Of a DNA stretch of 25,905 nt, positions 583 through 25,905 are shown piece after piece. This stretch comes from a virus. Lineage: Duplodnaviria > Heunggongvirae > Uroviricota > Caudoviricetes. The stretch is from the IMG/VR virus record IMGVR_UViG_2711768032_000005; one strand, given 5' to 3'. The translations under genes and the position numbers were made by a program. Within the stretch, counting starts at the first letter, position 1. The number at the start of each line of letters is the position of its first letter. Under the pieces are notes generated by a model that worked only from the letters and a program-made list of their open reading frames with translations, did no database searches and was not told the origin of the DNA.

Positions 583-1596
583 TTACTCTACTGTGGACAC
601 TGTGTGGACACTCTCGGCCTCAGTACCACCTCTTAGCGGATTAAGAGAAATGGCGTCCTGAAGGTACTCTGGCGCAAAATGAGCGTAAACCATAGTTTGC
701 TCAATCCGCGTGTGACCTAGTATCCGTTGTAGCGTGATAATACTTCCTCCATTAATCATGAAATGAGTGGCAAAGCTGTGCCTTAGTGCATGTGTGGCTT
801 GCCCCATTGGCAAATCCGGTTTTATTGCTTTCATTGTTCGTCTGAAGCGAGGGTAATCAGCATCAGGGAATAAAAAACCTCGTTTGTTATCCGCGATCAT
901 TTTGGCAACAGCCTCTGAGATCGGGACGGTGCGTGGTTTGTTTGTTTTCGTTTTAACAAACGTGACGCGGTTATGGATGATATTTTCTGCTTTCAAACGA
1001 GCTGCTTCTCCCCAACGTGCTCCAGTACTCAGGCAAAGAATCGCAATCTTTTTGTTGTCGCCGTCAAGAGCAGCAAGCAGTAAGGCAATTTCTTCCTGTG
1101 TGAGATAGCCTGTGTCTGGTTTTTCCTCCTTAAGCCTTTTTGTCCCTCTGATAGGGTGCTCACCAAAGAATAACTCCGCTTCAATCAGGGCTGTAAACAT
1201 GCCGCTAATACATGTTAAATCACGATTGATACTCGAAGGTTTAATACCCTGACTTCTTCGGGTGGCGCAGTACTGGCTGATAAGCGATTTCGTAATTTGA
1301 AATGCGCATGGGTCATTCGTTATTTTTGTGAAGATTTCAATTTTTCCAAGATTAGATTTCCCATGCTCTTCGTGTTTACCCTTTAAATCCCACCAGATCT
1401 GTGTCAGCTCTGACAGACGTCGCTTGTCTGTTGGTTTTGATAGCCATTCTTTATTGTGGTGGTTGTACAACGTGTATTTCTCGAAAGCGACAGCTTCGCT
1501 TTTCTTATCAAACTTCCTACGGATGCGTTTTCCATTACGTCCAGTAGGGCGGATGTCCACTTCATATCGACCATCATCGAGTTTTTTGATTGCCAT
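583..1596 (-). CDS. int: tyrosine integrase, P2 Int-like
   Basis: 337 aa, same length as P2 Int as recalled; C-terminal catalytic region HALRHSFATH...LGH...VYAHF with terminal Tyr; ATG at 1596; adjacent to att core. Confidence 0.9.
   Translation of the reverse strand: MAIKKLDDGRYEVDIRPTGRNGKRIRRKFDKKSEAVAFEKYTLYNHHNKEWLSKPTDKRRLSELTQIWWDLKGKHEEHGKSNLGKIEIFTKITNDPCAFQITKSLISQYCATRRSQGIKPSSINRDLTCISGMFTALIEAELFFGEHPIRGTKRLKEEKPDTGYLTQEEIALLLAALDGDNKKIAILCLSTGARWGEAARLKAENIIHNRVTFVKTKTNKPRTVPISEAVAKMIADNKRGFLFPDADYPRFRRTMKAIKPDLPMGQATHALRHSFATHFMINGGSIITLQRILGHTRIEQTMVYAHFAPEYLQDAISLNPLRGGTEAESVHTVSTVE
592..610. promoter_or_regulatory. two direct repeats TGTGGACA 11 bp apart, candidate integrase arm-type binding sites
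   Basis: TGTGGACA at 592-599 and 603-610, overlapping the 3' end of int. Matches my recollection of the P2 Int arm-site consensus; not verified. Confidence 0.4.
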
Positions 1597-3893: not shown

Positions 3894-4165
3894 GTATTCG
3901 TATTGAAATTGGCGAACGTTATGTCGTTACCAGTGACAGCTTTCAGTTTATTCTCCACGAGAAAAAGAGGGCTGAAAGCGGTAAAAACGCCGGTCAGGAA
4001 TGGCTGGCGGTAGTTGGTTATTACCCGAAATTAAGCCAGCTCGTTTCCGGCATGATGCATCACGATATTCTGACCGGAAGCGCAAAGTCTTTTGCTGATT
4101 TAAACGCGCAGGTTGAGCAACTCAGCAAGCGTTGTTCAGAGGCTTTTGGCTCACATGGCCGTTAA
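3890..4165 (+). CDS. hypothetical early protein
   Basis: 91-aa ORF, GGAGAA RBS, ATGA overlap with the upstream ORF. Confidence 0.5.
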   Translation: MSIRIEIGERYVVTSDSFQFILHEKKRAESGKNAGQEWLAVVGYYPKLSQLVSGMMHHDILTGSAKSFADLNAQVEQLSKRCSEAFGSHGR

Positions 4166-6428
4166 AGCCTCCGGGCATTTTGTCCCTCCGTCAGCATTTG
4201 CCGCAGGCACCGGTAAGACGTTTACCGGTGCTTATGCATGGAACGCGCCACGCGAGGCCGTCGGGCGCGAAAGACCCCTTACACGTGACGAGATGCGTCA
4301 GGTGCAAGGTGTTTTATCCACGATTAACCGCCTGCCTTACTTTTTGCGCTCGCTGTTTACTTCACGCTATGACTACATCCGGCGCAATAAAAGCCCGGTG
4401 CACGGGTTTTATTTCCTCACATCCACTTTTCAGCGTCGTTTATGGCCGCGCATTGAGCGCGTGAATCAGCGCCATGAAATGAACACCGACGCGTCGTTGC
4501 TGTTTCTGGCAGAGCGCGACCAGTATGCGCGCCTGCCGGGGATGAATGACAAGGAGCTGAAAAAGTTTGCCGCCCGTATCTCATCACAGCTTTTCATGAT
4601 GTATGAGGAACTCTGCGATGCCTGGGTGGATGCGCATGGCGAGAAAGAATCGCTGTTTACGGATGAGGCGCAGGCTCACCTCTATGGTCATGTTGCTGGC
4701 GCTGCACGTGCTTTCAATATTTCCCCTCTCTACTGGAAAAAATACCGTAAAGGACAGATGACCACGAGGCAGGCATATTCTGCCATTGCCCGCCTGTTTA
4801 ACGATGAGTGGTGGACTCATCAGCTTAAAGGCCAGCGTATGCGCTGGCATGAGGCGTTACTGATTGCTGTCGGGGAGGTGAATAAAGACCGTTCTCCTTA
4901 TGCCAGTAAACATGCCATTCGTGATGTGCGTGCGCGCCGCCAGGCAAATCTGGAGTTTCTTAAATCGTGTGACCTTGAGAACAGGGAAACCGGCGAGCGC
5001 ATCGACCTTATCAGTAAGGTGATGGGCAGTATTTCTAATCCTGAAATTCGCCGGATGGAGCTGATGAACACCATTGCCGGTATTGAGCGTTACGCCGCCG
5101 CAGAGGGTGATGTGGGGATGTTTATCACGCTAACCGCGCCGTCAAAGTATCACCCGACACGTCAGGTCGGAAAAGGCGAAAGTAAAACCGTGCAGCTTAA
5201 TCACGGCTGGAACGATGAGGCATTTAATCCAAAGGATGCGCAGCGTTATCTCTGCCGTATCTGGAGCCTGATGCGCACGGCATTCAAGGATAATGATTTA
5301 CAGGTCTACGGTTTGCGTGTCGTCGAGCCACACCACGACGGAACGCCGCACTGGCATATGATGCTTTTTTGTAATCCACGCCAGCGTAACCAGATTATCG
5401 AAATCATGCGTCGCTACGCGCTCAAAGAGGATGGCGACGAAAGAGGAGCCGCGCGAAACCGTTTTCAGGCAAAACACCTTAACCGGGGCGGTGCTGCGGG
5501 ATATATCGCGAAATACATTTCAAAAAACATCGACGGCTATGCACTGGATGGTCAGCTCGATAACGATACCGGCAGACCGCTGAAAGACACTGCGGCGGCT
5601 GTTACCGCATGGGCGTCAACGTGGCGCATCCCGCAATTTAAAACGGTTGGACTGCCGACAATGGGGGCTTACCGTGAACTACGCAAATTGCCTCGCGGCG
5701 TCAGTATTGCTGATGAGTTTGACGAACGCGTCGAGGCTGCTCGCGCCGCCGCAGACAGTGGCGATTTTGCGCTGTATATCAGCACGCAGGGTGGGGCAAA
5801 TGTTCCGCGCGATTGTCAGACTGTCAGGGTTGCCCGTAGTCCGTCGGATGACGTTAACGAGTACGAGGAAGAAGTCGAGAGAGTGGTCGGCATTTACGCG
5901 CCGCATCTCGGCGCGCGTCATATTCATATCACCAGAACGACGGACTGGCGCATTGTGCCGAAAGTTCCGGTCGTTGAGCCTTTGACTTTAAAAAGCGGCA
6001 TCGCCGCGCCTCGGAGTCCTGTCAATAACTGTGGAAAGCTCACCGGTGGTGATACTTCGTTACCGGCTCCCACACCTTCTGAGCACGCCGCAGCCGTGCT
6101 AAATCTGGTTGATGACGGTGTTATCGAATGGAATGACCCGGAGGTCGTGAGGACGCTCAGGGGGGCATTAAAACACGGTCTGAGAAGACCAAACCGTCAG
6201 CAAAGAAACGGAAGCCCGTTAAAACCACATGAAATAGCACCGTCGGCCAGACTGACTCGGTCGGAACGATTGCAAATTACCCGTATCCGCGTTGACCTCG
6301 CTCAGAACGGTATCAGGCCGCAACGATGGGAGCTTGAGGCGCTGGCGCGTGGCGCGACCGTAAATTATGACGGGAAAAAATTCACGTATCCGATTGCTGA
6401 TGAGTGGCCGGAGTTTTCCGCAAACTAA
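4155..6428 (+). CDS. A: replication initiation protein A-like (rolling-circle nicking endonuclease)
   Basis: 757 aa from ATG 4155 (track ORF starts at TTG 4113; P2 A is about 761 aa as recalled). HUH-like HWHMMLF motif and paired tyrosines in GYIAKYISKNIDGY. Confidence 0.8.
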   Translation: MAVKASGHFVPPSAFAAGTGKTFTGAYAWNAPREAVGRERPLTRDEMRQVQGVLSTINRLPYFLRSLFTSRYDYIRRNKSPVHGFYFLTSTFQRRLWPRIERVNQRHEMNTDASLLFLAERDQYARLPGMNDKELKKFAARISSQLFMMYEELCDAWVDAHGEKESLFTDEAQAHLYGHVAGAARAFNISPLYWKKYRKGQMTTRQAYSAIARLFNDEWWTHQLKGQRMRWHEALLIAVGEVNKDRSPYASKHAIRDVRARRQANLEFLKSCDLENRETGERIDLISKVMGSISNPEIRRMELMNTIAGIERYAAAEGDVGMFITLTAPSKYHPTRQVGKGESKTVQLNHGWNDEAFNPKDAQRYLCRIWSLMRTAFKDNDLQVYGLRVVEPHHDGTPHWHMMLFCNPRQRNQIIEIMRRYALKEDGDERGAARNRFQAKHLNRGGAAGYIAKYISKNIDGYALDGQLDNDTGRPLKDTAAAVTAWASTWRIPQFKTVGLPTMGAYRELRKLPRGVSIADEFDERVEAARAAADSGDFALYISTQGGANVPRDCQTVRVARSPSDDVNEYEEEVERVVGIYAPHLGARHIHITRTTDWRIVPKVPVVEPLTLKSGIAAPRSPVNNCGKLTGGDTSLPAPTPSEHAAAVLNLVDDGVIEWNDPEVVRTLRGALKHGLRRPNRQQRNGSPLKPHEIAPSARLTRSERLQITRIRVDLAQNGIRPQRWELEALARGATVNYDGKKFTYPIADEWPEFSAN

Positions 6429-6631: not shown

Positions 6632-9226
6632 TTAGGCGGCGATGTTGATGTTATTTTTATATTTTAAGAGGGCGCTTTCTGGAACTGCTGGCCAGGCTGA
6701 GTATCTATAATAGTTCATATAATCTTTCTCTATCAGTCTCTTTAACTGTTTGTTAGCCTGAACTTCATCGTCAAGTAAAAAGAATGCACACATGGATGTA
6801 GCCCCTTTTGAATTATTATGTGCTAAAACTGAATTTATCTCATTCTTTTTAATGTCTTGTCTTTGTTTTTTCTTGGCAACTTCCCTATTGATTATTAAAA
6901 CATCTTTCTCTCTGTAATCTTTGATTTTTTCAAGATTTTCATTAGTTATTTTAATTGTTTCTTTATAGTTTCCTGCAAGAAGGTTAGTATAAGATTTTCC
7001 TAAGATATAATCACTAAACCCGTAACCTTTCTCATAAGCTTCATCAAGAAGAATTATCGCTTTTTCATAATCGCCGTTTAAAGATGCAATATCAGATTTT
7101 AATTTCAAAATGGTTATTTCTGATTTATTTCTTGGCAGGCTGTCAATAAACTCCTCTGCCAATTTGATGTTGTTTTTATCAATTAGCAATATGTCTATAA
7201 TACTGTCTGTATGATTATTCTTCCACGGACAATTCATGGCTTCTTTGGCTAATTCAATGCCAGCTTTGATGTCTCTGTTGCAGCCTATCTCATATCGAGC
7301 TTTAAATATAATGAAAGGAGCAATTCTTGCAATGTCGCCCTCTTCTTCATATTTATCAATAAAGTCTTTCATCAAGCCGGGAGTGTTTTCGTCAAAGTCT
7401 GTTTCAAATAAAGATAGATGCAGTTGTGTTAAATATTTTAATATATTTCTCTTTTTATTTTTTGATGATGTTTTGTAAACGTTGGATAATTTATCTATGC
7501 ACAATAATGCCTCTTCTTTTTTTTGCAATGCGCAGGTGAAATCAGTATATAACGACAAATATGTATCGTGAGTAGGGTTAACATCTTTTATTTTATCAAG
7601 TAGTTCTTGTATTGATTTGTTACAATCTTTCTTATCATAGCTTGATTGATGTTTTGTCTTTATCGCGTCATATTTTATTCTCCATGCAATATTATCCAGA
7701 TTACTGCTTTGGAGTAAACTTTTATCAATTAAATCATGTATTTCATCAAAGGTTATTAATTCCTCATCATGATTTTCTAGATGTAGAATAGCAATTCTGC
7801 TTAAATGATTCTTAAGATTTATGCTATATGGGAATTTTTCTAGCAATCCCTTTAGGTAATGTATTTTTTCATTTAGATCTGTGAATATGTTTGTCCTTGA
7901 TAGGGCGTAATTTATATTAAATTCATCAAGAGCTATGAGTTTATCACTAATTTCTAATGCTGACTTTGTGTCTTTTTGTTCTTCTTTTATTTCAATTAGC
8001 CTACGTAGATATTTAGATTTTATATTGTCACTATCAGCGTTATTGATTAAATCATTCAGTTTTGACTCTGCGTTTGAATAATTTTTATTTCTAATGAGGT
8101 TGTCAATGTATAACAAATTCTTAAAATCTTCTTCGGGAATTTTTTGTTCGTCTAAATCACTTTGGGATAGCTCGTTTATTAATGATGATATGTCATGTGT
8201 TAGAGTGTGTTTTTTTAATTTTGAGAGGTCAGATTTGATAATGTTATTTTTAGATAAGCTGTACTCATCTGTTATAAAGTTTTGAATCATCATCTCTCTT
8301 TTTGTGGATTTTTGATTCCCTCCAAAAGAGAGTGTGCAGCCTAATTCAAGGGCTAGTTCTGCCATTAATTCATCAAAGCCTTCTATTTCTACCCAATAAA
8401 CTTTCTCTTGACCTAGAAGCCTAATTAGTTCTGGTGGGATGGCGTCATTTTGTCTTACGCACCAATATACCCCATTCCGTAGGTAATCGTCCTGTTTTAA
8501 TAAATGTTTTAAAACATCCATGATAGAGCTGTCATTGCCAGCATAACCAACAAAAATAACCCCGTATTCTTTAGTGAATTCAGTTAGTTTTTCACGAGTG
8601 TTACCTTCTAATGACTCGGTTTCTTTTAAAGAGCTTTTTATGCTATCAAATAGATAATCACCATGTAATTTTATTATTTTTGGTCTTGAAGAAGTAATTG
8701 AGACGCCTTTAATTGATGAGTCATGTGCGCATAATAATGGTCTGTCAGAAGAAAATTGATAAAATGCTTCATTTATTAAATCGTCAAAATTTGTTGTGAA
8801 GACAGTATCAAAAAACTTTGATTCAAATAGTTCAACGAGATAAGCATATCCAATTGAAGGTAATTTTTTGTCTACTTGAAGCTCAACAAATCTTCTGCGT
8901 TGAGATGGGAGATCAAATTTCTTTTCAAAAAGAGAGGAGTATTCATTGTTTGGGTCGTACCAGACTGGATGGTTTTTGGATAGCCATTTTTTAGCTTCTT
9001 CGGCATCGATATATTCTTTATTGGATAGTCTTGTGTATATCTCTTCTCTCCATGTTGCAACTAACTCTTGACCAGTTTTTATTCCTGATGTAACGGATGC
9101 ACCAGCACCAAGAAAGAGTGAATAGTTAGGTGATGTACCTGATTTGATTTTTATATAATCTGCTAAATCTTTAACTGTTCTTTTTTTGGCAACCAGTTGT
9201 TCCTTGGTAGTATCACGATCAGACAT
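6632..9226 (-). CDS. SIR2-like (sirtuin-type NADase) domain protein with long helical C-terminal region; candidate anti-phage defence effector
   Basis: 864 aa; ATG at 9226 with strong GGAGGG RBS. N-terminal 300 aa carry SIR2-type motifs FLGAGAS (37-44), TTNFD (Asn146, codon 8789-8791), KLHGD (His188, codon 8663-8665), GYAGND; Asn-His spacing of 42 is similar to ThsA and DSR2. AT-rich, unlike flanking phage genes. Confidence 0.8.
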   Translation of the reverse strand: MSDRDTTKEQLVAKKRTVKDLADYIKIKSGTSPNYSLFLGAGASVTSGIKTGQELVATWREEIYTRLSNKEYIDAEEAKKWLSKNHPVWYDPNNEYSSLFEKKFDLPSQRRRFVELQVDKKLPSIGYAYLVELFESKFFDTVFTTNFDDLINEAFYQFSSDRPLLCAHDSSIKGVSITSSRPKIIKLHGDYLFDSIKSSLKETESLEGNTREKLTEFTKEYGVIFVGYAGNDSSIMDVLKHLLKQDDYLRNGVYWCVRQNDAIPPELIRLLGQEKVYWVEIEGFDELMAELALELGCTLSFGGNQKSTKREMMIQNFITDEYSLSKNNIIKSDLSKLKKHTLTHDISSLINELSQSDLDEQKIPEEDFKNLLYIDNLIRNKNYSNAESKLNDLINNADSDNIKSKYLRRLIEIKEEQKDTKSALEISDKLIALDEFNINYALSRTNIFTDLNEKIHYLKGLLEKFPYSINLKNHLSRIAILHLENHDEELITFDEIHDLIDKSLLQSSNLDNIAWRIKYDAIKTKHQSSYDKKDCNKSIQELLDKIKDVNPTHDTYLSLYTDFTCALQKKEEALLCIDKLSNVYKTSSKNKKRNILKYLTQLHLSLFETDFDENTPGLMKDFIDKYEEEGDIARIAPFIIFKARYEIGCNRDIKAGIELAKEAMNCPWKNNHTDSIIDILLIDKNNIKLAEEFIDSLPRNKSEITILKLKSDIASLNGDYEKAIILLDEAYEKGYGFSDYILGKSYTNLLAGNYKETIKITNENLEKIKDYREKDVLIINREVAKKKQRQDIKKNEINSVLAHNNSKGATSMCAFFLLDDEVQANKQLKRLIEKDYMNYYRYSAWPAVPESALLKYKNNINIAA

Positions 9227-18453: not shown

Positions 18454-18898
18454 GTTTAAGCGTTTTGAAGACCGGCTGACCGGACTGATTGAATCGCTGT
18501 CACCGTCTGGGCGTCGGCGACTGAGTGCAGAACTGGCGAAGCGTCTGCGGCAGAGTCAGCAGCGTCGGGTGATGGCACAGAAAGCCCCGGACGGCACACC
18601 CTACGCACCACGCCAGCAGCAGAGCGCCAGAAAAAAGACCGGTCGCGTTAAGCGAAAAATGTTTGCGAAACTTATCACCAGTCGTTTTTTGCATATCCGC
18701 GCCAGCCCTGAACAGGCATCAATGGAGTTTTACGGCGGGAAGTCACCGAAAATCGCCAGTGTGCATCAGTTCGGTCTGTCGGAAGAAACCCGGAAAGACG
18801 GTAAGAAAATTGATTATCCGGCGCGTCCTCTGCTCGGCTTTACCGGTGAGGATGTGCAGATGATTGAAGAGATTATCCTGGCTCACCTCGACCGTTAG
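18446..18898 (+). CDS. S: tail completion protein S-like
   Basis: 150 aa, same length as P2 S as recalled; synteny. Confidence 0.75.
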   Translation: MNEFKRFEDRLTGLIESLSPSGRRRLSAELAKRLRQSQQRRVMAQKAPDGTPYAPRQQQSARKKTGRVKRKMFAKLITSRFLHIRASPEQASMEFYGGKSPKIASVHQFGLSEETRKDGKKIDYPARPLLGFTGEDVQMIEEIILAHLDR

Positions 18899-18899
18899 T

Positions 18900-18917
18900 T
18901 GTGCCATTCCCGACACA
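18900..18917. promoter_or_regulatory. TGT-N12-ACA dyad, candidate Ogr-type late-activator site upstream of V
   Basis: TGTGCCATTCCCGACACA read in the 66-bp S-V intergenic region. P2 late promoters are described as having a TGT-N12-ACA element; spacing to the V start is not verified. Confidence 0.35.
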
Positions 18918-18964
18918 TCATCGTTACATTGCCGCCGGTATGACCCGGAGGCATCCTTCCCGTT

Positions 18965-19600
18965 ATGAACACTCTCGCAAATATCCAGGAACTCGCGCGC
19001 GCACTGCGCAACATGATTCGTACCGGCCTTGTCGTCGAAACCAACCTTAAAGCCGGTCGCTGCCGTGTGCTGACCGGCGGCATGTGCACCGACTGGCTTC
19101 AGTGGCTGACCTGTCGTGCCGGGCGTTCGCGCACATGGTGGGCACCTTCCGTGGGGGAGCAGGTGCTGATTCTGGCCGTGGGCGGTGAACTTGACACGGC
19201 GTTTGTTCTGCCGGGGATTTATTCCGGCGATAACCCTGCGCCGTCTGCGTCGGCGGATGCACTGCATATCCGTTTTCCTGACGGGGCGGTGATTGAGTAT
19301 GAACCCGAAACCAGTGCACTCACGGTAAGCGGAATTAAAACGGCCAGCGTAACGGCTTCTGATTCTGTTACCGCCACGGTGCCGGTGGTCATGGTGAAAG
19401 CATCAACCCGCGTCACCCTGGACACACCGGAGGTGGTCTGCACCAACAGGCTGATTACCGGCACGCTGGAAGTGCAGAAGGGCGGGACGATGCGCGGCAA
19501 CATTGAACACACCGGCGGTGAACTCTCATCAAACGGTAAGGTACTGCATACCCATAAACACCCCGGCGACAGCGGCGGCACAACCGGGAGTCCTCTATGA
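18965..19600 (+). CDS. V: baseplate spike protein V-like
   Basis: 211 aa, same length as P2 V as recalled; synteny. Confidence 0.85.
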   Translation: MNTLANIQELARALRNMIRTGLVVETNLKAGRCRVLTGGMCTDWLQWLTCRAGRSRTWWAPSVGEQVLILAVGGELDTAFVLPGIYSGDNPAPSASADALHIRFPDGAVIEYEPETSALTVSGIKTASVTASDSVTATVPVVMVKASTRVTLDTPEVVCTNRLITGTLEVQKGGTMRGNIEHTGGELSSNGKVLHTHKHPGDSGGTTGSPL

Positions 19601-19944
19601 CAGCGCGTTATCTCGGAATGAATCGCCGTGATGGCCTGACTGTCACTGACCTTGAGCATATCAGCCAGAGTATCGGCGATATCCTGCGCACACCGGTCGG
19701 CTCACGGGTGATGCGTCGTGATTACGGCTCGTTGCTGGCGTCAATGATTGACCAGCCGCAGACCCCGGCGCTTGAGTTGCAGATTAAGGTCGCCTGTTAC
19801 ATGGCGGTGCTGAAATGGGAACCCCGCGTCACCCTGTCATCCGTCACTACGGCGCGCAGTTTTGACGGGCGAATGACGGTCACGTTAACCGGTCAGCACA
19901 ACGACACCGGTCAGCCACTTTCGTTAACCATCCATGTGAGTTGA
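19597..19944 (+). CDS. W: baseplate protein W-like
   Basis: 115 aa, same length as P2 W as recalled; ATGA overlap with V. Confidence 0.85.
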   Translation: MTARYLGMNRRDGLTVTDLEHISQSIGDILRTPVGSRVMRRDYGSLLASMIDQPQTPALELQIKVACYMAVLKWEPRVTLSSVTTARSFDGRMTVTLTGQHNDTGQPLSLTIHVS

Positions 19945-19948
19945 AACC

Positions 19949-20857
19949 ATGCCGATTATCGACCTGAACCAGCTACCCGCACCGGATGTGGTCGAGGAGC
20001 TGGACTTTGAAACCATTCTTGCCGAACGCAAGGCGACACTGATTTCCCTTTACCCGGAAGACCAGCAGGAGGCGGTCGCCCGTACCCTGACGCTGGAATC
20101 CGAGCCTCTCGTCAAACTGCTGGAGGAAAACGCTTATCGTGAGCTTATCTGGCGTCAGCGTGTGAATGAGGCCGCACGGGCGGTGATGTTGGCCTGTGCA
20201 GCCGGTAATGACCTTGATGTGATTGGTGCCAATTACAACACCACGCGCCTGACTATCACCCCGGCAGATGATTCGACCATTCCGCCGACACCGGCAGTGA
20301 TGGAATCTGACACCGATTATCGTCTGCGTATTCAGCAGGCGTTTGAGGGCTTAAGCGTCGCCGGGTCGGTGGGTGCTTATCAGTATCATGGTCGCAGTGC
20401 CGACGGGCGTGTCGCGGATATTTCTGTAACCAGTCCGTCTCCGGCCTGCGTCACCATCTCTGTGCTGTCACGTGAAAATAACGGTGTTGCATCCGAAGAC
20501 CTGCTGGCCGTGGTGCGTAACGCCCTTAATGGCGAGGACGTCAGGCCGGTGGCCGACCGCGTGACCGTGCAGTCTGCCGCCATCGTTGAATACCAGATAA
20601 ACGCCACGCTTTACCTTTACCCTGGTCCCGAAAGCGAACCCATACGCGCTGCCGCCGTGAAAAAACTGGAAGCGTACATCACGGCACAGCACCGGCTGGG
20701 GCGCGACATCCGTCTGTCTGCCATTTATGCCGCTTTGCATGTGGAAGGCGTGCAGCGTGTCGAGCTGGCCGCACCACTGGCCGACATCGTGCTCAACAGT
20801 ACGCAGGCGTCTTTCTGCACCGAATGCCGCGTCGTGACCGGAGGCTCGGATGAGTGA
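19949..20857 (+). CDS. J: baseplate protein J-like
   Basis: 302 aa, same length as P2 J as recalled; synteny. Confidence 0.85.
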   Translation: MPIIDLNQLPAPDVVEELDFETILAERKATLISLYPEDQQEAVARTLTLESEPLVKLLEENAYRELIWRQRVNEAARAVMLACAAGNDLDVIGANYNTTRLTITPADDSTIPPTPAVMESDTDYRLRIQQAFEGLSVAGSVGAYQYHGRSADGRVADISVTSPSPACVTISVLSRENNGVASEDLLAVVRNALNGEDVRPVADRVTVQSAAIVEYQINATLYLYPGPESEPIRAAAVKKLEAYITAQHRLGRDIRLSAIYAALHVEGVQRVELAAPLADIVLNSTQASFCTECRVVTGGSDE

Positions 20858-21380
20858 TTCGCGACTGCTGCCGACCGGCTCATCACCGCTTGAAGTTGCC
20901 GCCGCAAAAGCCTGTGCGGAAATTGAAAAAACGCCGGTCAGTATTCGTGAGCTGTGGAACCCGGATACCTGTCCGGCAAATCTGCTGCCGTGGCTGGCGT
21001 GGGCGTTTTCGGTCGACAGGTGGGATGAAAAGTGGCCGGAAGCGACAAAACGCGCCGTTATCCGCGATGCCTATTTCATCCACTGTCATAAAGGCACTAT
21101 CGGCGCAATCCGGCGTGTGGTGGAGCCGCTCGGCTATCTCATCAACGTGACGGAGTGGTGGGAAAACAGTGACCCGCCCGGCACCTTCCGGCTCGATATT
21201 GGTGTACTGGAAAGTGGCATCACAGAGGCAATGTATCAGGAAATGGAACGGCTGATTGCTGATGCCAAACCTGCAAGCCGCCACCTTATTGGCCTGAACA
21301 TTACCCGGGACATTCCCGGCTACCTGTTCGCCGGTGGTGTGGCTTACGACGGCGATGTAATTACGGTTTACCCCGGATAA
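20850..21380 (+). CDS. I: baseplate / tail protein I-like
   Basis: 176 aa, same length as P2 I as recalled; overlaps J by 8 nt. Confidence 0.8.
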   Translation: MSDSRLLPTGSSPLEVAAAKACAEIEKTPVSIRELWNPDTCPANLLPWLAWAFSVDRWDEKWPEATKRAVIRDAYFIHCHKGTIGAIRRVVEPLGYLINVTEWWENSDPPGTFRLDIGVLESGITEAMYQEMERLIADAKPASRHLIGLNITRDIPGYLFAGGVAYDGDVITVYPG

Positions 21381-21390
21381 GTGAGGAATA

Positions 21391-23601
21391 ATGAGCACAA
21401 AATTCAGAACCGTTATCACCACTGCCGGTGCAGCAAAGCTGGCAGCGGCAACCGCACCGGGAGGGCGGAAGGTCAACATTACCACGATGGCCGTCGGGGA
21501 TGGCGGTGGTAAATTGCCTGTCCCGGATGCCGGACAGACCGGGCTTATCCATGAAGTCTGGCGACATGCGCTGAACAAAATCAGCCAGGACAAACGAAAC
21601 AGTAATTATATTATCGCAGAGCTGGTTATTCCGCCGGAGGTGGGCGGTTTCTGGATGCGTGAGCTTGGCCTGTACGATGATGCGGGAACGTTAATTGCTG
21701 TGGCGAACATGGCTGAAAGTTATAAGCCTGCCCTTGCCGAAGGCTCAGGGCGTTCGCAGACCTGCCGCATGGTCATCATCGTCAGCAGTGTGGCCTCAGT
21801 GGCGCTGACCATTGACACCACAACGGTGATGGCAACGCAGGATTACGTTGATGACAAAATTGCAGAGCACGAACAGTCACGACGTCACCCGGACGCCTCG
21901 CTGACCGCAAAAGGTTTTACTCAGCTAAGCAGCGCGACCAACAGCACGTCTGAAACACTGGCCGCAACGCCGAAAGCGGTAAAGGCCGCATATGACCTTG
22001 CTAACGGGAAATATACTGCACAGGATGCCACTACAGCGCGAAAAGGCCTTGTTCAGCTCAGTAGTGCGACTAACAGCACGTCTGAAACGCTCGCCGCAAC
22101 GCCGAAAGCGGTAAAGGCCGCATATGACCTTGCTAACGGGAAATACACTGCACAGGACGCCACCACAGCGCGAAAAGGTCTTGTCCAGCTCAGTAGCGCC
22201 ACCAACAGCGATTCTGAAACGCTTGCGGCAACGCCAAAGGCGGTAAAGGCCGCGTATGACCTTGCTAACGGGAAATACACTGCACAGGATGCCACCACGG
22301 CGCGAAAAGGGCTTGTCCAGCTCAGTAGCGCCACCAACAGTGATTCTGAAACGCTGGCCGCAACACCAAAAGCGGTGAGGTCTGCCTATGACAATGCTGA
22401 AAAACGTCTTCAGAAAGATCAGAACGGTGCGGATATTCCGGGAAAGGATACCTTCACGAAAAATATCGGTGCCTGTCGTGCTTATAGCGGCGCTTTGAGC
22501 ACTGAAGCCGGAAACTGGACAACCGCTCAGTTTATTGACTGGCTAGAGTCTCAGGGAGCCTTTAATCATCCTTACTGGATGTGCAAGTGTTCCTGGTCAT
22601 ATGGTAATAACAAAATTATTACCGATACTGACTGTGGGACTATTCATCTTGCAGGTTGCGTGATTGAGGTTATGGGCGTTAAAGCAGCAATGACCATTCG
22701 TGTGACCACTCCGAGTACATCAAGCGGTGGTGGTACCACCAGTGCGCAATTCACGTATATCAATCACGGAGCTGATTATGCGCCGGGCTGGCGACGCGAC
22801 TACAATACGAAAAATAAGCAACCGGCTTTTGCATTAGGGAAAACAGGAAATACGGTTGCAAATAATAAAGCGGTAGGATGGAACTGGGACAGTGGTGCTT
22901 ATTGTGCACAGGATGGCGGAGCATCAAAAATGGTGTTGCATTTTTACACGGGTGAGGGAAGTTGTCCGGCAATGCAGTTTCTTGTGGATTATAAAAACAG
23001 GGGGATTTTTTACAGGTCGGCACGTGATGGGTATGGATTTGAGGCTGACTGGTCAGAGTTTTATACCACATCACGAAAGCCAACACCTGCGGATATTCTT
23101 GCTCTGGCATTATCAGGCGGAAGCATGTCAGGCAGCATAAAATTTATCAATGATGCCTTCCTGATTTGGGAAAGAAACACTGACTGGGCGAAAATTGGAT
23201 TTAAAAATGATTCAGATGCTGATTCTGACTCATACATGTGGTTTGAAACTGGTGATAATGGCAATGAATATTTTAAATGGCGCATCAGGTCTGGCAGCAC
23301 AACAAAAGATCTGATGACGCTTAAGTCTGATGCACTACGGGTTACCGGGCAGGTGATACCATCAAATTTCAGCAATTTTGACTCCCGCTATGTCCGGGAT
23401 ATCCGACTTGGTGGTGCCGCCACATACAAACCTGCGAACAATGGCATGACATGGACACATCAGGCACCGTCCGGGTGTGTATATACCGGCATTATTGTTC
23501 AGGATACCGGCTCAAACTCTGCCGATAACATTGGTGGCGTATATTACAGACCGGTTCAGAAATACATTAACGGGACATGGTACAACGTGGCGCAGGTATA
23601 A
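21391..23601 (+). CDS. H: tail fibre protein H-like, with internal tandem repeats and a divergent middle segment
   Basis: 736 aa; N-terminus MSTKFRTVITTAGAAKLAAA and C-terminal tip QKYINGTWYNVAQV resemble P2 H as recalled (P2 H is shorter, about 669 aa). Confidence 0.85.
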   Translation: MSTKFRTVITTAGAAKLAAATAPGGRKVNITTMAVGDGGGKLPVPDAGQTGLIHEVWRHALNKISQDKRNSNYIIAELVIPPEVGGFWMRELGLYDDAGTLIAVANMAESYKPALAEGSGRSQTCRMVIIVSSVASVALTIDTTTVMATQDYVDDKIAEHEQSRRHPDASLTAKGFTQLSSATNSTSETLAATPKAVKAAYDLANGKYTAQDATTARKGLVQLSSATNSTSETLAATPKAVKAAYDLANGKYTAQDATTARKGLVQLSSATNSDSETLAATPKAVKAAYDLANGKYTAQDATTARKGLVQLSSATNSDSETLAATPKAVRSAYDNAEKRLQKDQNGADIPGKDTFTKNIGACRAYSGALSTEAGNWTTAQFIDWLESQGAFNHPYWMCKCSWSYGNNKIITDTDCGTIHLAGCVIEVMGVKAAMTIRVTTPSTSSGGGTTSAQFTYINHGADYAPGWRRDYNTKNKQPAFALGKTGNTVANNKAVGWNWDSGAYCAQDGGASKMVLHFYTGEGSCPAMQFLVDYKNRGIFYRSARDGYGFEADWSEFYTTSRKPTPADILALALSGGSMSGSIKFINDAFLIWERNTDWAKIGFKNDSDADSDSYMWFETGDNGNEYFKWRIRSGSTTKDLMTLKSDALRVTGQVIPSNFSNFDSRYVRDIRLGGAATYKPANNGMTWTHQAPSGCVYTGIIVQDTGSNSADNIGGVYYRPVQKYINGTWYNVAQV
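21910..22396 (+). repeat. four tandem 132-bp (44-aa) in-frame repeats inside the tail fibre gene
   Basis: Units start at 21910, 22042, 22174, 22306. Protein unit KGLVQLSSATNS(T/D)SETLAATPKAVKAAYDLANGKYTAQDATTAR; by eye copies 2 and 3 differ at about 13 of 132 nt, mostly synonymous; the fourth copy diverges in its last third. Confidence 0.85.
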
Positions 23602-23604
23602 TTT

Positions 23605-23646
23605 ATGCAGCATTTGCGTATTACCGTGAAGGAGATCGGTGAGTAA
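23605..23646 (+). pseudogene. 13-codon ORF (MQHLRITVKEIGE) at the position of tail-fibre assembly gene G; possible 5' remnant interrupted by the IS
   Basis: ATG 4 nt after the H stop; first four residues MQHL match my uncertain recollection of the P2 G N-terminus; stop at 23644-23646; IS genes follow. Confidence 0.3.
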
Positions 23647-23699
23647 CATCGATGGAGATCGGTTCGTGTCACTTTCACAGAACCGTTTTTAAATTACCT

Positions 23700-24352
23700 T
23701 CACTGATCTCCTTCGGTCAACGGAGATTGTATTTTCCGCATTGATTCTCCTTTAAGTTCGATCTTGATACTGCCATGAACCAGTCGATCTAGGATGGCAT
23801 CCGCATGTGTGGAGTCTCCGATCATTTTGTACCAGTTTTCCACCGGCAACTGGCTCACTACGATGATTGAGCCTCGTTGGTACATCAGATCCACTATTTC
23901 CAGCAGGTCGCTACATGCCCCTGATAGCACTGTTCCATCAGCGCTTTAAGGCGATAATAGTAGACCTTGTATCCCTGTCGGCAGGCATTATGACCAAGTG
24001 CACATGCCAGGAACGTTTTACCGCTGCCGGTGGCCCCGGTCAGTAAAATATTTTGTTTCAGGGTTAACCAGTTTCCCTGACTGAGTGAACGGATGAGGGC
24101 CCTGTCCAGCCCTCTATTGTTACGATAATCCAGCTTTGATAACTCAGCATTAAGTCTGAACCGTGCATGTTTGATCAGACGCTCTGCCTTCCTGTTTTCA
24201 CGGCAGGTTAGTTCTTCTGCTGTCAGTAATGACAGGCGTTCTTCGAAGCCCAGCTCCTGGTATGTGCCCGGTTGAGCAAGTTGCTTTTTAAGCGCATCAC
24301 GGAAGCCGGTGAGTTTAAGTGCGGTCAGTTGTTCGTAAAGATGATTCATCAT
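23700..24352 (-). pseudogene. istB: istB (IS21 helper ATPase), disrupted
   Basis: Two fragments in different frames (23894..24352 with Walker A; 23700..23930 with C-terminal RGSIIVVSQLP...ILDRLVHGS...KGESMR). Frames overlap around 23930-23945 and the segment expected to hold Walker B (hhhhDE) appears missing. Confidence 0.65.
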
Positions 24353-24363
24353 TGGATCCCGTA

Positions 24364-25905
24364 TCAGTGGTAATACTCACTGCCGCGTACGTTTTCGTGT
24401 TCCATCGTGGATAACAGATCTGGTTTTGGATCCTGAACAGGTTGTTTATCCAGACCTTTTTCCAGGATCGATTTAATACCTGACAGACGCCATACCTTTG
24501 TTTTCAGAGCTCTTGCACATGCTGCATTAAGTCTGGCTTTACTGTATTTTTTATGAAGGTTCAGGAGTCCAAGGCAGAAGCGATAGCTTTGTTCCGGATG
24601 TGGACGAGAGTTCAGTATATGAAGCACATAACTATGAGTTTCACTGCCTATGTGCCCCGCCCATTCCAGAAGACGCTCTGGCGTCCAGGTGGCATGCTGT
24701 CGATGAGCTTCAGGCATGTGCTCGTTGCGGGTACTGTAGCCATAAGTACGCTTGCGCGGGTGCACAGCAACCTCCTGCCCCTGATTGAAGAGTCTTACCA
24801 GTTCTCCGGAGATCCATGCTTCCAGTTGCTGGCCTAACAGCGAACATGGAACCGAGTAGTAATGTTTGTCGATTTCCACGTGGTAATCGGCATGAACTCT
24901 GACTTTCTTCACCAGGGTGTAACTGTAACTGGCTTCAGGAAGAGGCTTCAGTGCGGGTTTATCAAGCTGGATGAAGAGTTCTGCACGTGAATAACCCAAC
25001 TTCTGCATTATTTTGTTATTCAGTCTTTCCAGCAACTCCCGAATGCGCTGATTAAGCGATGCAAGGCTGTAGAAGATCTCATGCCTGATTCGGGCCATGA
25101 TCCAGCGTTCAACAACCTGAACGCCAACTTCAGCTTTGGCTTTATCTTTCGGTTTACGTGGCCGCGCAGGCAAAACTGCGACATTATAATGCTCAAGCAT
25201 CTGCTGGTAGGTAGGGTTAACGTCAGGATCATACTTACATGCCCTGGATGTGGCGCTTTTCAGATTGTCCGGAACAACAAGTTCAGGAACGCCACCCAAC
25301 CACTGGAAGCAGCGAACATGACTCATCACCCAGTCTTCAAGCTGCTGAGACCAGGTGGCCTCTGCCCATGTGTAACTTGATGCCCCGAGAACAGCTACGA
25401 TGACCTGAGCAGTTCTTATTTCTCCGGTCTCAGGGTCGGTAACGCCAACGGTAGGTCCACAGTAATCAACGAAAAGTTTTTCGCCAGCTTTATGTACCTG
25501 ACGCATTGATGGTGAAGTGGTTTTGAGCCATTCACGGTACATCCGGCAGTAATGGTTATAGCTGTAAAAACCGCCTGGATTACGCTCACAGTATTCTTCC
25601 CAGAGTAGCTGCAGCGTCACGCATTTATTACGCAGTTCCCGGTGTACTGTAGCCCAGTCAGGCAGAGAGTGCTTCTTCATCTTAACCTGGGTCTGAAGGA
25701 ACGCATGTTTTAGTTTTGTATCATCCCATCCTGTAGGTAAGGGCCACTGCTTTATGCCAAGTTGAGCCGCCCGATTAGCATATCTGGATACAACGGAAGG
25801 GGAGATTGCAAGACTACGACCAATTTGTCGATGGCTGAGTCCAACACCGTATTTAAGCCTAAGAATTTCTTTAAGTTTTCTCATAGAAATTGGAACTGTT
25901 GGCAT
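24364..25905 (-). CDS. istA: IS21-family transposase IstA
   Basis: 513-aa ORF; N-terminal HTH (LSHRQIGRSLAISPSVVSRY); directly upstream of istB. ATG lies at the last three bases of the window, so the true start could be further upstream. Confidence 0.8.
   Translation of the reverse strand: MPTVPISMRKLKEILRLKYGVGLSHRQIGRSLAISPSVVSRYANRAAQLGIKQWPLPTGWDDTKLKHAFLQTQVKMKKHSLPDWATVHRELRNKCVTLQLLWEEYCERNPGGFYSYNHYCRMYREWLKTTSPSMRQVHKAGEKLFVDYCGPTVGVTDPETGEIRTAQVIVAVLGASSYTWAEATWSQQLEDWVMSHVRCFQWLGGVPELVVPDNLKSATSRACKYDPDVNPTYQQMLEHYNVAVLPARPRKPKDKAKAEVGVQVVERWIMARIRHEIFYSLASLNQRIRELLERLNNKIMQKLGYSRAELFIQLDKPALKPLPEASYSYTLVKKVRVHADYHVEIDKHYYSVPCSLLGQQLEAWISGELVRLFNQGQEVAVHPRKRTYGYSTRNEHMPEAHRQHATWTPERLLEWAGHIGSETHSYVLHILNSRPHPEQSYRFCLGLLNLHKKYSKARLNAACARALKTKVWRLSGIKSILEKGLDKQPVQDPKPDLLSTMEHENVRGSEYYH

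What the first reader, a model, noticed from the sequence alone, without database searches (positions are those of the whole stretch)
22400..23150. Lower-GC, Cys-containing middle segment in tail fibre H, suggesting receptor-binding module exchange
Seen in sequence: after the repeats the gene becomes more AT-rich and encodes a segment with several cysteines (for example YWMCKCSWSYGNN) and Gly/Ser/Thr-rich stretches, while the N-terminal anchor and the extreme C-terminal tip look P2-like as recalled. Inference: a mosaic fibre with a swapped host-range determinant.
Basis: partly seen in the sequence, partly recalled or inferred. Interest (0 to 1): 0.4.

Follow-up and report, generated by a model that had tools for sequence, protein, structure and literature searches.

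The report
Mu/P1-type module in P2 tail fibre
The cysteine-containing stretch of this P2-like prophage's tail-fibre gene is a known, widely shared fibre module (the Mu S'/P1 S' type) that replaces the matching part of the classic P2 fibre, an ordinary case of phages swapping fibre parts.

Summary
GC falls from 0.56 to 0.46 at window nt ~22387, and 7 of the 9 cysteines of H lie in aa 337-587. However, the low GC runs to the end of H and into gene G, canonical P2 H shows the same step, and Gly/Ser/Thr are not enriched.

Homology settles what the segment is. H aa 340-571 (22408-23103) has no counterpart in P2 H. It is the body of the alternative fibre S' of Mu G(-) and P1 C(-): PDB 8JU3, about 75% aa identity, 73-78% nt. 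An alignment-based AlphaFold model matches 8JU3.

The whole distal 400 aa is a mosaic:
- S'-type sub-domain 1
- S'-type sub-domain 2
- an 85-aa P2/Mu S(+)-type domain
- a tip unlike P2's
- an 18-aa P2-like end that continues into gene G

These pieces shuffle independently among P2-like phages. There is no gix/cix site.

The same distal part is in phage fiAA91-ss and many E. coli and Shigella prophages, so it is already known. A host-range role is inferred, not shown; the tip plus chaperone may matter as much or more. In this copy the chaperone gene G is cut by ISEc12.

The parts
21391..23601 (+). Tail-fibre gene H, 736 aa, intact reading frame
   Evidence: ORF list. Pfam PF12571 + 4x PF03406 + PF12604 + PF21446. 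99.5% identical to the H of a Peduovirus isolate (OU784750); 93% to fiAA91-ss H, the whole difference being one 44-aa repeat. The exact protein is indexed in 185 blocks of the public assembly collection.
21391..21843 (+). N-terminal baseplate anchor (aa 1-151), P2-type
   Evidence: PF12571, E 2.7e-58. nt 21391-22116 is 95.6% identical to P2 H.
21922..22376 (+). Tandem 132-nt (44-aa) Phage_fiber_2 repeats: 4 units here, 2 in P2, 3 in fiAA91-ss
   Evidence: TRF period 132, 3.4 copies, 90% matches. PF03406 x4. Proteins with an identical distal part have lengths 604/648/692/736.
22390..22473 (+). Upstream junction (aa 334-361): a single hybrid 'DNAEKRLQKDQNGADIP-GKDTFTKNIGA' motif; the GC change point is at 22387
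   Evidence: Mu S' has two copies of this motif, one on each side of gix. The window has one copy, whose first half is like the end of Mu Sc and whose second half is like the start of Mu Sv'. Change point.
22408..22815 (+). S'-type body, sub-domain 1 (aa 340-475): alpha/beta, holds C362, C398, C400, C415, C423; ends in the conserved TIRVTTP...PGWRRDYNT motif
   Evidence: 8ju3 residues 183-330, E 4.7e-80. Many 50%-identity representatives match only query 1-~146. AF2 pLDDT 80-92 over aa ~370-470. Invariant columns.
22819..23103 (+). S'-type body, sub-domain 2 (aa 477-571): beta-rich, holds C505, C525
   Evidence: 8ju3 residues 322-414, E 7e-43. Representatives match query ~138-230 alone. AF2 pLDDT 81-89 over aa ~490-569. 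Weak PF12604 hit at aa 485-577.
23104..23358 (+). 85-aa P2 H / Mu S(+) / P1 S(+)-type domain (aa 572-656); absent from Mu S' and from the vB_EcoM-12474 and 9W fibres
   Evidence: 5yvq residues 183-267. 69% aa to P2 H 391-471. nt 23174-23337 is 82% to P2 and 79% to P1 Sv(+) and Mu Sv(+). 4% aligned identity in 12474II and 9W.
23359..23544 (+). Variable distal tip (aa 657-718)
   Evidence: 37% to P2, 29% to 12474II, 84% to 9W, 97% to STO_Bone2 H. Best PDB sequence match is the phiTE short tail fibre 9cuy_c 482-552 (about 57% by my count of the printed alignment).
23545..23614 (+). Conserved downstream linker: last 18 codons of H, the stop codon, and the first 10 nt of the chaperone gene G (ATGCAGCATT at 23605-23614)
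   Evidence: nt 23547-23615 is 84% to P2 and 80% to the P1 S/U junction. aa 719-736 are 89-100% identical in every P2-like H compared. Alignment with fiAA91-ss and P2. Intact H-G junction in L012.
23615..25905 (-). ISEc12 (IS21 family) inserted in G; its end TGCGTATTACC starts at 23615. istB is truncated by a 97-nt internal deletion (junction 23913/23914). istA is 24364-25905. The window stops before the far IS end.
   Evidence: Annotated ISEc12 copies and junction comparison. L018 is identical to the window and its contig ends exactly at the far IS end.

Best explanation
SHOWN:
- Window 22408-23103 (H aa 340-571) is a two-sub-domain S'-type fibre body. It is homologous to the variable part of the alternative tail fibre S' of Mu (G(-) orientation, gp52, PDB 8JU3) and of P1 (C(-)).
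- In this P2-like prophage it occupies the place of P2 H residues ~241-390, to which it is unrelated.
- It is one piece of a low-GC distal cassette (aa ~337-736 plus the chaperone gene G). The cassette is built from independently exchangeable modules: S' sub-domain 1, S' sub-domain 2, an 85-aa domain of the P2 H / Mu S(+) type, a variable tip, and a conserved 18-codon end that runs into the 5' end of G.
- Conserved stretches sit at the module borders: the repeat/NGADIP motif upstream, PGWRRDYNT between the sub-domains, and YINGTWYNVAQV plus the G start downstream.
- The gene is fixed. There is no gix/cix site and no inverted repeat flanking the distal part, and no invertase gene was noticed (the ORFs were not systematically scanned for one).

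INFERRED:
- The modules were exchanged by homologous recombination at these conserved borders, drawing on the fibre-module pool shared by P2-, P1- and Mu-like phages.
- The assembled trimer binds an LPS-core-type receptor, and the S' body contributes to a Mu G(-)-like specificity (E. coli C, Shigella sonnei, Citrobacter). fiAA91-ss carries the identical distal 400 aa, and the title of its description paper links it to S. sonnei.
- The tip and the N-domain of its co-inherited chaperone G probably share in, or dominate, recognition.
- In this particular prophage the fibre is probably not assembled, because G is split after its 10th nucleotide by ISEc12.
For: - No P2 H counterpart for aa 241-570, while aa 1-240 are 96%, aa 571-651 are 69%, and the last 18 aa are 16/18 identical to P2.
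- PDB sequence hit 8ju3 over aa 334-571, domain E 3.8e-118.
- blastn: 22411-23081 is 77.9% to P1 Sv' and 73% to Mu Sv'.
- AF2 model from a 32-sequence alignment: pLDDT 77.6. Foldseek top hit 8ju3, E 8.8e-31, TMq 0.63, 75% identity; next the R2 pyocin fibre 6cl6, E 1.9e-3.
- Module independence: per-module identities to 12474II, YpM_46, 9W, STO_Bone2 and P2 range from 4% to 100%.
- 617 representative clusters match the body, many matching only aa 340-485 or only aa 477-569.
- 553 of 5426 complete E. coli genomes share some piece, but only 30 share the whole 1.2 kb.
- No gix/cix site and no flanking inverted repeat. Hybrid NGADIP junction.
- The chaperone goes with the tip. The N-part of fiAA91-ss G is 96-98% identical only to G of phages that share the tip; its C-part is 76-80% to P2 G, Mu U and P1 U but 36-39% to U'.
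- The G that follows the identical H in L012 is 168/175 identical to fiAA91-ss G.
- Mu G(-) host list: PMC4406740.
- The G::ISEc12 junction.
Against: - No binding or host-range data exist for this protein.
- In the fibre of phage P88, host range mapped to a 31-aa region near the C-terminus; swapping the upstream 120-aa variable region had no effect (PMC5285337).
- The tip here is only 37% identical to the Mu S' tip, and the chaperone is U/G-type rather than U'-type. A Mu G(-)-like specificity cannot simply be transferred.
- SfMu S' is over 95% identical to Mu S' yet has a different host range and uses O-antigen (PMC4406740). Specificity in this family therefore changes with few substitutions.
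- The papers describing 8JU3 and fiAA91-ss are not held in the library and could not be read.
Confidence: 0.75

Rival explanations
1. The swap is real, but the Cys-containing S' body is mainly a structural body or spacer of the distal fibre. Host range would be set by the tip (aa 657-736) together with the virion-bound chaperone G.
For: - Swapping P88 HR2, a 31-aa region near the C-terminus, changed host range; swapping the upstream HR1 did not (PMC5285337).
- The Mu TFA N-domain binds the distal moiety of the fibre and stays on the virion (PMC9608196).
- The tip and the G N-part are co-inherited, independently of the body.
- The body has strongly conserved core motifs, which fits a scaffold role.
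Against: - The body makes up most of the Mu Sv' part, which genetics defines as host-range-determining.
- Sub-domain 2 and the surface loops vary strongly among relatives.
- The model's second-best structural match is a receptor-binding R2 pyocin fibre fragment.
Confidence: 0.35
2. The distal part is a recently captured, frozen copy of an invertible Mu/P1 G/C segment fixed in the (-) orientation.
For: - The S' body is fused, in one reading frame, to domains that lie on the opposite strand of the invertible segment in Mu and P1.
- The single hybrid NGADIP motif looks like a deletion of the gix-bearing 34 aa.
Against: - Only 73-78% nt identity to the Mu and P1 Sv' parts, so the event is not recent.
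- No gix/cix remnant at up to 7 mismatches in 26 or up to 5 in 20, and no flanking inverted repeat.
- vB_EcoM-12474II, vB_YpM_46 and STO_Bone2 H run colinearly through this junction (98-99% identity over aa 152-336, 89-93% over aa 337-470), and fiAA91-ss H is identical there.
Confidence: 0.1
3. There was no exchange: the segment is a fast-diverged but colinear part of P2 H, and the low GC reflects amino-acid usage.
For: GC2 changes little (0.524 to 0.487), and the G/S/T content is unchanged.
Against: - BLASTP finds no alignment between aa 241-570 and P2 H, while the flanks are 69-96% identical.
- The segment is about 75% identical to Mu S'.
- The GC drop is largest at third codon positions.
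Confidence: 0.01

Closest known systems
Tail fibre gpH of Enterobacteria phage fiAA91-ss (KF322032 / NC_022750; Allue-Guardia et al. 2013, J Virol 87:13665; paper not held, citation seen)
   Same: Identical over aa 337-736, and the same N-terminal anchor. Gene order I-H-G.
   Different: One 44-aa repeat fewer (692 against 736 aa). Its chaperone gene G is intact, whereas here G is cut by ISEc12.
Mu tail fibre S' (gp52, G(-) orientation), PDB 8JU3 (Mori et al. 2024, Virology 593:110017; paper not held)
   Same: The body, aa 340-571, matches Mu S' ~183-414: about 75% aa and 73% nt identity, and the model matches the crystal structure. C362, C398, C415 and C525 are shared.
   Different: - Mu S' is assembled by Gin inversion at gix. 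Here the gene is fixed and gix-less.
- Mu goes from the body straight to its own tip. Here an extra 85-aa S(+)-type domain and a different tip follow (37% identity).
- Mu uses chaperone U'. The cognate chaperone here is U/G-type.
- The N-terminal anchor is P2-type, not Mu Sc.
P1 tail fibre S', C(-) orientation (Sv' of the C segment, NC_005856)
   Same: 77.9% nt identity over window 22411-23081; this is the closest match among the classical phages.
   Different: - P1 Sv' carries about 215 extra residues before the body.
- It lies in a Cin-invertible segment and is followed by U'.
- Its tip is only 37% identical.
Canonical P2 gpH (NC_001895, 669 aa)
   Same: aa 1-240 are 96% identical, aa 571-651 are 69%, the last 18 aa are 16/18. 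Same operon position. Same GC step.
   Different: - P2 residues 241-390 are unrelated to the S' body.
- P2 residues 472-591 have no counterpart here.
- The tip is 37% identical.
- P2 has 2 repeats, this H has 4.
H of Escherichia phage vB_EcoM-12474II-V (MK907236-9)
   Same: Colinear over aa 1-569 (92% identity), including the same repeat-to-S'-body junction.
   Different: It goes from the body straight to a different tip, as Mu S' does. It lacks the 572-656 module, and sub-domain 2 is only 70% identical.

Membership tests
P2-type tail fibre gpH (Peduovirus) | N-terminal tail-collar/baseplate anchor domain (PF12571) with high identity to P2 H | tested here: met
   PF12571 E 2.7e-58. 96% identity to P2 H aa 1-240.
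P2-type tail fibre gpH (Peduovirus) | Position in the late operon V-W-J-I-H-G | tested here: met
   ORFs 18965-21380 are V, W, J and I by length and order, then H. Same layout in P2 and fiAA91-ss and in L012-L019.
P2-type tail fibre gpH (Peduovirus) | Followed by an intact Caudo_TAP/gpG chaperone gene | tested here: not met
   Only the first 10 nt of G remain before ISEc12. The gene is intact (175 aa) after the identical H in seven other genomes. This is a lesion of this copy, not a feature of the type.
Mu S' / P1 S' variable part (Sv') | Sequence and fold homology to the Sv' body | tested here: met
   8ju3 E about 1e-118. 73-78% nt identity. Foldseek E 8.8e-31, TMq 0.63.
Mu S' / P1 S' variable part (Sv') | Lies in an invertible segment bounded by gix/cix sites next to a Gin/Cin invertase | tested here: not met
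   No gix (up to 7/26 mismatches) or cix (up to 5/20) anywhere in the window. Only one weak inverted repeat, 78% complementary. The ORFs were not scanned for an invertase gene; none was noticed.
Mu S' / P1 S' variable part (Sv') | Sv'-type tip and U'-type chaperone downstream | tested here: not met
   The tip is 37% identical to the Mu and P1 S' tips. The C-part of the cognate G is 36-39% to U' and 76-80% to U and P2 G.
T4 gp37-type distal fibre (PF12604 gp37_C) | Match to the gp37 C-terminal domain profile | tested here: inconclusive
   PF12604 scores 32.2 bits (cut-off 22.5) over aa 485-577, covering profile positions 2-78 of 95. No T4 gp37 structure appears among the PDB sequence or fold hits.
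R-type pyocin fibre (PA0620) | Fold similarity to the C-terminal receptor-binding fragment (6CL6) | tested here: inconclusive
   Foldseek E 1.9e-3, probability 1.00, but TMq 0.36 and 10% identity.

The most novel reading that the evidence does not exclude
The fixed fibre places in series an S'-type ((-) orientation) body and S(+)/P2-type distal domains that Mu and P1 can only display alternately. The body might act as a second, lateral receptor-binding site, giving one fibre two specificities. The co-occurring cysteine pairs (C398/C415 and C400/C423) might be disulfides that stabilise this exposed knob after lysis.
Probability: 0.1. Interest if true: 0.45.

Novelty: already known. Interest (0 to 1): 0.15.

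Why it matters
It matters little as a discovery. The same distal fibre is in a published phage (fiAA91-ss, 2013) and in many E. coli and Shigella prophages. Horizontal exchange of fibre parts among P2, P1 and Mu was the subject of a 1992 paper (title seen). A close homologue of the segment has a crystal structure (8JU3).

It is useful for annotation. H of this prophage should be read as a P2 anchor, 4 repeats, a Mu/P1 S'-type body, a P2/S(+)-type domain and a non-P2 tip. Predicting host range from 'P2-like' alone would mislead. The prophage is probably adsorption-defective because G is interrupted.

The module map and the natural variants that share one module but not another give a ready-made set for asking which part of such fibres binds the receptor.

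Tried and rejected
1. Single-sequence AlphaFold2 of aa 326-736 gave pLDDT 35.7 and was unusable. I repeated it with a 32-sequence alignment for aa 340-571 only, which gave pLDDT 77.6.
2. The first homologue search returned only near-identical proteins. A profile of diverse representatives was needed to get usable diversity.
3. I considered composition as proof of a swap and rejected it. P2's own distal H and G, the P1 C segment and the Mu G segment are all low-GC.
4. Gly/Ser/Thr enrichment is not present.
5. A search for a relic gix/cix site or a flanking inverted repeat found none. The motif FTKNIGA at 22451-22476 is only a paralogue of the gix-encoding FIQNLGL.
6. PDB sequence searches of each sub-segment added nothing for the body beyond 8ju3.
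7. I looked for a complete E. coli genome with the same H/G::ISEc12 junction and found none among 5426. The identical junction exists in assembly GCA_001269145.1, whose contig ends at the far IS end, so the rest of G could not be seen.
8. Papers not held in the library: Mori 2024 (8JU3), Haggard-Ljungquist 1992, Allue-Guardia 2013, North and Davidson 2021.
9. Cysteine pairing could only be tested by co-occurrence in sequences. Neither model nor PDB coordinates are accessible here.
Full report
**Context**

The window is a P2-like (Peduovirus) prophage in prophage order. It runs: integrase (583-1596, minus strand), replication gene A (4113-6428), a low-GC cargo gene, Q and P, the O-N-M-L genes, lysis genes, R, S, V, W, J, I, and then H at 21391-23601. 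H is 736 aa long. Downstream, only ten nucleotides of the fibre-chaperone gene G remain before an IS21-family element.

**Checking the observation**

A sliding profile shows GC near 0.55-0.56 through the anchor and repeats, falling to 0.43-0.49 from about 22400.
- The best single change point inside H is nt 22387: 0.558 on the left, 0.459 on the right, z 4.6.
- GC3 falls from 0.565 (aa 1-336) to 0.432 (aa 337-736), p 3e-4.
- The neighbouring late genes V-W-J-I have GC3 0.637, p 1e-11.
- Seven of the nine cysteines of H lie in aa 337-587 (Fisher p 0.009). The quoted peptide is aa 395-407.

So the core observation holds. Three details do not.
- The low GC is not a middle dip. It continues through aa 572-656 (0.42) and the tip (0.49) to the stop codon.
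- Gly+Ser+Thr is 0.28 in the segment and 0.26-0.28 elsewhere. Only the loop TTPSTSSGGGTTS is rich in these residues.
- Canonical P2 H has the same compositional step (0.562 for aa 1-240, 0.475 for aa 241-669, G 0.438). The P1 C segment (0.466) and the Mu G segment (0.452) sit at the same level. Low GC therefore marks the shared pool of distal fibre modules, not this particular swap.

**What the segment is**

BLASTP against P2 H gives 96% identity for aa 1-240, nothing for aa 241-570, 69% for aa 571-651 (P2 391-471), and 48% for aa 651-736. Within that last stretch the final 18 residues are 16/18 identical. P2 residues 472-591 have no counterpart.

A search of PDB sequences places aa 334-571 on Mu 'Tail fiber protein S, S prime' (8ju3), with a domain E-value of 3.8e-118. 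It places aa 572-656 on Mu S (5yvq, residues 183-267). It places aa 666-733 on the short tail fibre of Pectobacterium phage phiTE (9cuy_c).

At nucleotide level:
- 22411-23081 is 77.9% identical to the Sv' part of the P1 C segment and 73% to Mu Sv'.
- 23174-23337 is 82% to P2 H and 79% to the (+)-orientation Sv parts of P1 and Mu.
- 23547-23615 is 84% to P2.

The fibre thus joins, in one reading frame, a (-)-type body with (+)-type distal pieces. In Mu and P1 these lie on opposite strands of the invertible segment.

**Structure**

A single-sequence AlphaFold run failed (pLDDT 36). With a 32-sequence alignment of diverse homologues, aa 340-571 gave pLDDT 77.6. The model has two ordered blocks: aa ~370-470 (alpha/beta) and aa ~490-569 (beta). 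They are separated by low-confidence regions at the Gly/Ser/Thr loop and at aa ~471-489.

Foldseek against the PDB returns 8ju3 first (E 8.8e-31, TMq 0.63, 75% identity). The C-terminal fragment of the R2 pyocin fibre, 6cl6, comes second (E 1.9e-3, TMq 0.36).

**Modularity**

A search of 1.84 billion representative proteins found 617 clusters matching the body. Many match only aa 340-485 or only aa 477-569, and some carry sub-domain 1 two to four times.

Among P2-like fibres the pieces vary independently:
- vB_EcoM-12474II is 93% identical in sub-domain 1 and 70% in sub-domain 2. It lacks aa 572-656 and has another tip.
- vB_YpM_46 and the STO_Bone2 prophage share sub-domain 1 (89%) but not sub-domain 2 (22%). 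STO_Bone2 shares the tip (97%).
- Phage 9W shares the tip (84%) but not sub-domain 1 (37%).
- All of them, P2 included, keep the last 18 residues at 89-100% identity.

In 5426 complete E. coli genomes, 553 share some piece of the distal 1.2 kb and only 30 share the whole of it.

Conserved stretches sit at the borders:
- the repeat/NGADIP motif upstream;
- the invariant TIRVTTP...PGWRRDYNT at the end of sub-domain 1;
- YINGTWYNVAQV, the stop codon and the G start downstream.

These are the likely sites of homologous exchange. That step is inference.

**Not an invertible element**

Mu S' carries two copies of a 'NGADIP...F..N.G' motif, one on each side of gix. The window has a single hybrid copy and lacks the 34 residues that include the gix-encoded FIQNLGLQ. 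No gix or cix sequence occurs anywhere in the window, even at 7 mismatches in 26 or 5 in 20. No inverted repeats flank the distal part.

**Chaperone and tip**

Assemblies that encode exactly this 736-aa H usually have an intact 175-aa Caudo_TAP gene four nucleotides downstream. That G is 168/175 identical to fiAA91-ss G.

The N-terminal half of fiAA91-ss G is 96-98% identical only to G of phages that share the tip (9W, STO_Bone2), and 64-69% to the others. Per PMC9608196, citing North 2019, the N-terminal half is the fibre-binding domain in Mu. The C-terminal half is 76-80% identical to P2 G, Mu U and P1 U, but 36-39% to U'. Tip and chaperone therefore travel together, separately from the S' body.

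**Function**

What is shown is homology, architecture and distribution. The functional reading is inferred. [quoted passage not shown] This fits a contribution of the S' body to specificity.

Against a simple transfer of specificity:
- The tip and chaperone here are not the S'/U' ones.
- SfMu S' is over 95% identical to Mu S' yet has another host range.
- In the fibre of phage P88, host range mapped to a 31-aa region near the C-terminus and not to the upstream variable region (PMC5285337).

I therefore give substantial weight (0.35) to the rival in which the tip plus G is the main determinant.

**Cysteines**

Among the 50%-identity representatives, C398 (74%), C415 (84%) and C525 (72%) are conserved. 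The others are variable.
- C398 and C415 co-occur (p 1e-4).
- C400 and C423 co-occur (p 1e-8).
- The Mu-type C419 and the window-type C423 are mutually exclusive (p 5e-5).

This looks like paired cysteines. It is not corrected for phylogeny and could not be checked on coordinates.

**State of this copy**

The end of ISEc12 (TGCGTATTACC...) begins at 23615, after ATGCAGCATT of G. Comparison with two other copies gives the IS boundary and a 5-bp target duplication. The copy has a 97-nt deletion inside istB.

Assembly GCA_001269145.1 is identical to the window over 10.5 kb, and its contig stops exactly at the far IS end. No complete E. coli genome in the collection has this junction. Without G the fibre is unlikely to fold. 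That is inferred from the known role of fibre-assembly proteins.

**Verdict**

This is a real and correctly sensed mosaic, but an ordinary and already documented one. Composition is not the diagnostic evidence. The host-range role of the Cys segment itself remains untested.

Noticed in passing
window 23605-25905: The tail-fibre chaperone gene G is split after its 10th nucleotide by ISEc12 (IS21 family). The IS copy itself has a 97-nt deletion inside istB (junction at 23913/23914), leaving a 152-aa IstB ORF. The window ends at the istA start codon.
   Followed up: yes
L003 (STO_Bone2), L010 (GTEN_24), L011 (MLI106K3) and window 23615: ISEc12 sits at four different sites in the J-H-G block of P2-like prophages in four genomes: inside J, inside H (twice, at different positions) and inside G. 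This suggests repeated independent hits, either from a target preference or from selection for crippled prophages.
   Followed up: partly
window 6632-9226 (minus strand): An 864-aa ORF with very low GC (0.32; GC3 0.27) and an N-terminal SIR2_2 domain. Its PADLOC hits are to the SIR2 parts of pAgo-associated and PDC-S65 candidate defence proteins. It lies between gene A and portal gene Q, the tin/old cargo position of P2, so it is probably a prophage-borne anti-phage defence gene.
   Followed up: partly
window 21922-22376: The copy number of the 44-aa Phage_fiber_2 repeat is polymorphic among otherwise identical fibres. Protein lengths of 604, 648, 692 and 736 aa correspond to 1 to 4 units. This window has the longest form, so fibre length varies in steps.
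   Followed up: partly
window 22582-22659 (C398, C400, C415, C423): Cysteines co-occur in pairs across homologues (398 with 415; 400 with 423). The Mu-type C419 and the window-type C423 are mutually exclusive. This may reflect disulfides or packed pairs. It is not corrected for phylogeny.
   Followed up: partly
P0126, P0134 (Photorhabdus proteins): Some fibre proteins carry S' sub-domain 1 two or three times in tandem. Many Salmonella and E. coli fibres join sub-domain 1 directly to a PF21446-type domain and skip sub-domain 2.
   Followed up: no
window 18898-18965: There is no cargo gene between S and V, the orf30 position of P2. fiAA91-ss is the same; STO_Bone2 and P2 carry a 786-nt ORF there.
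   Followed up: no
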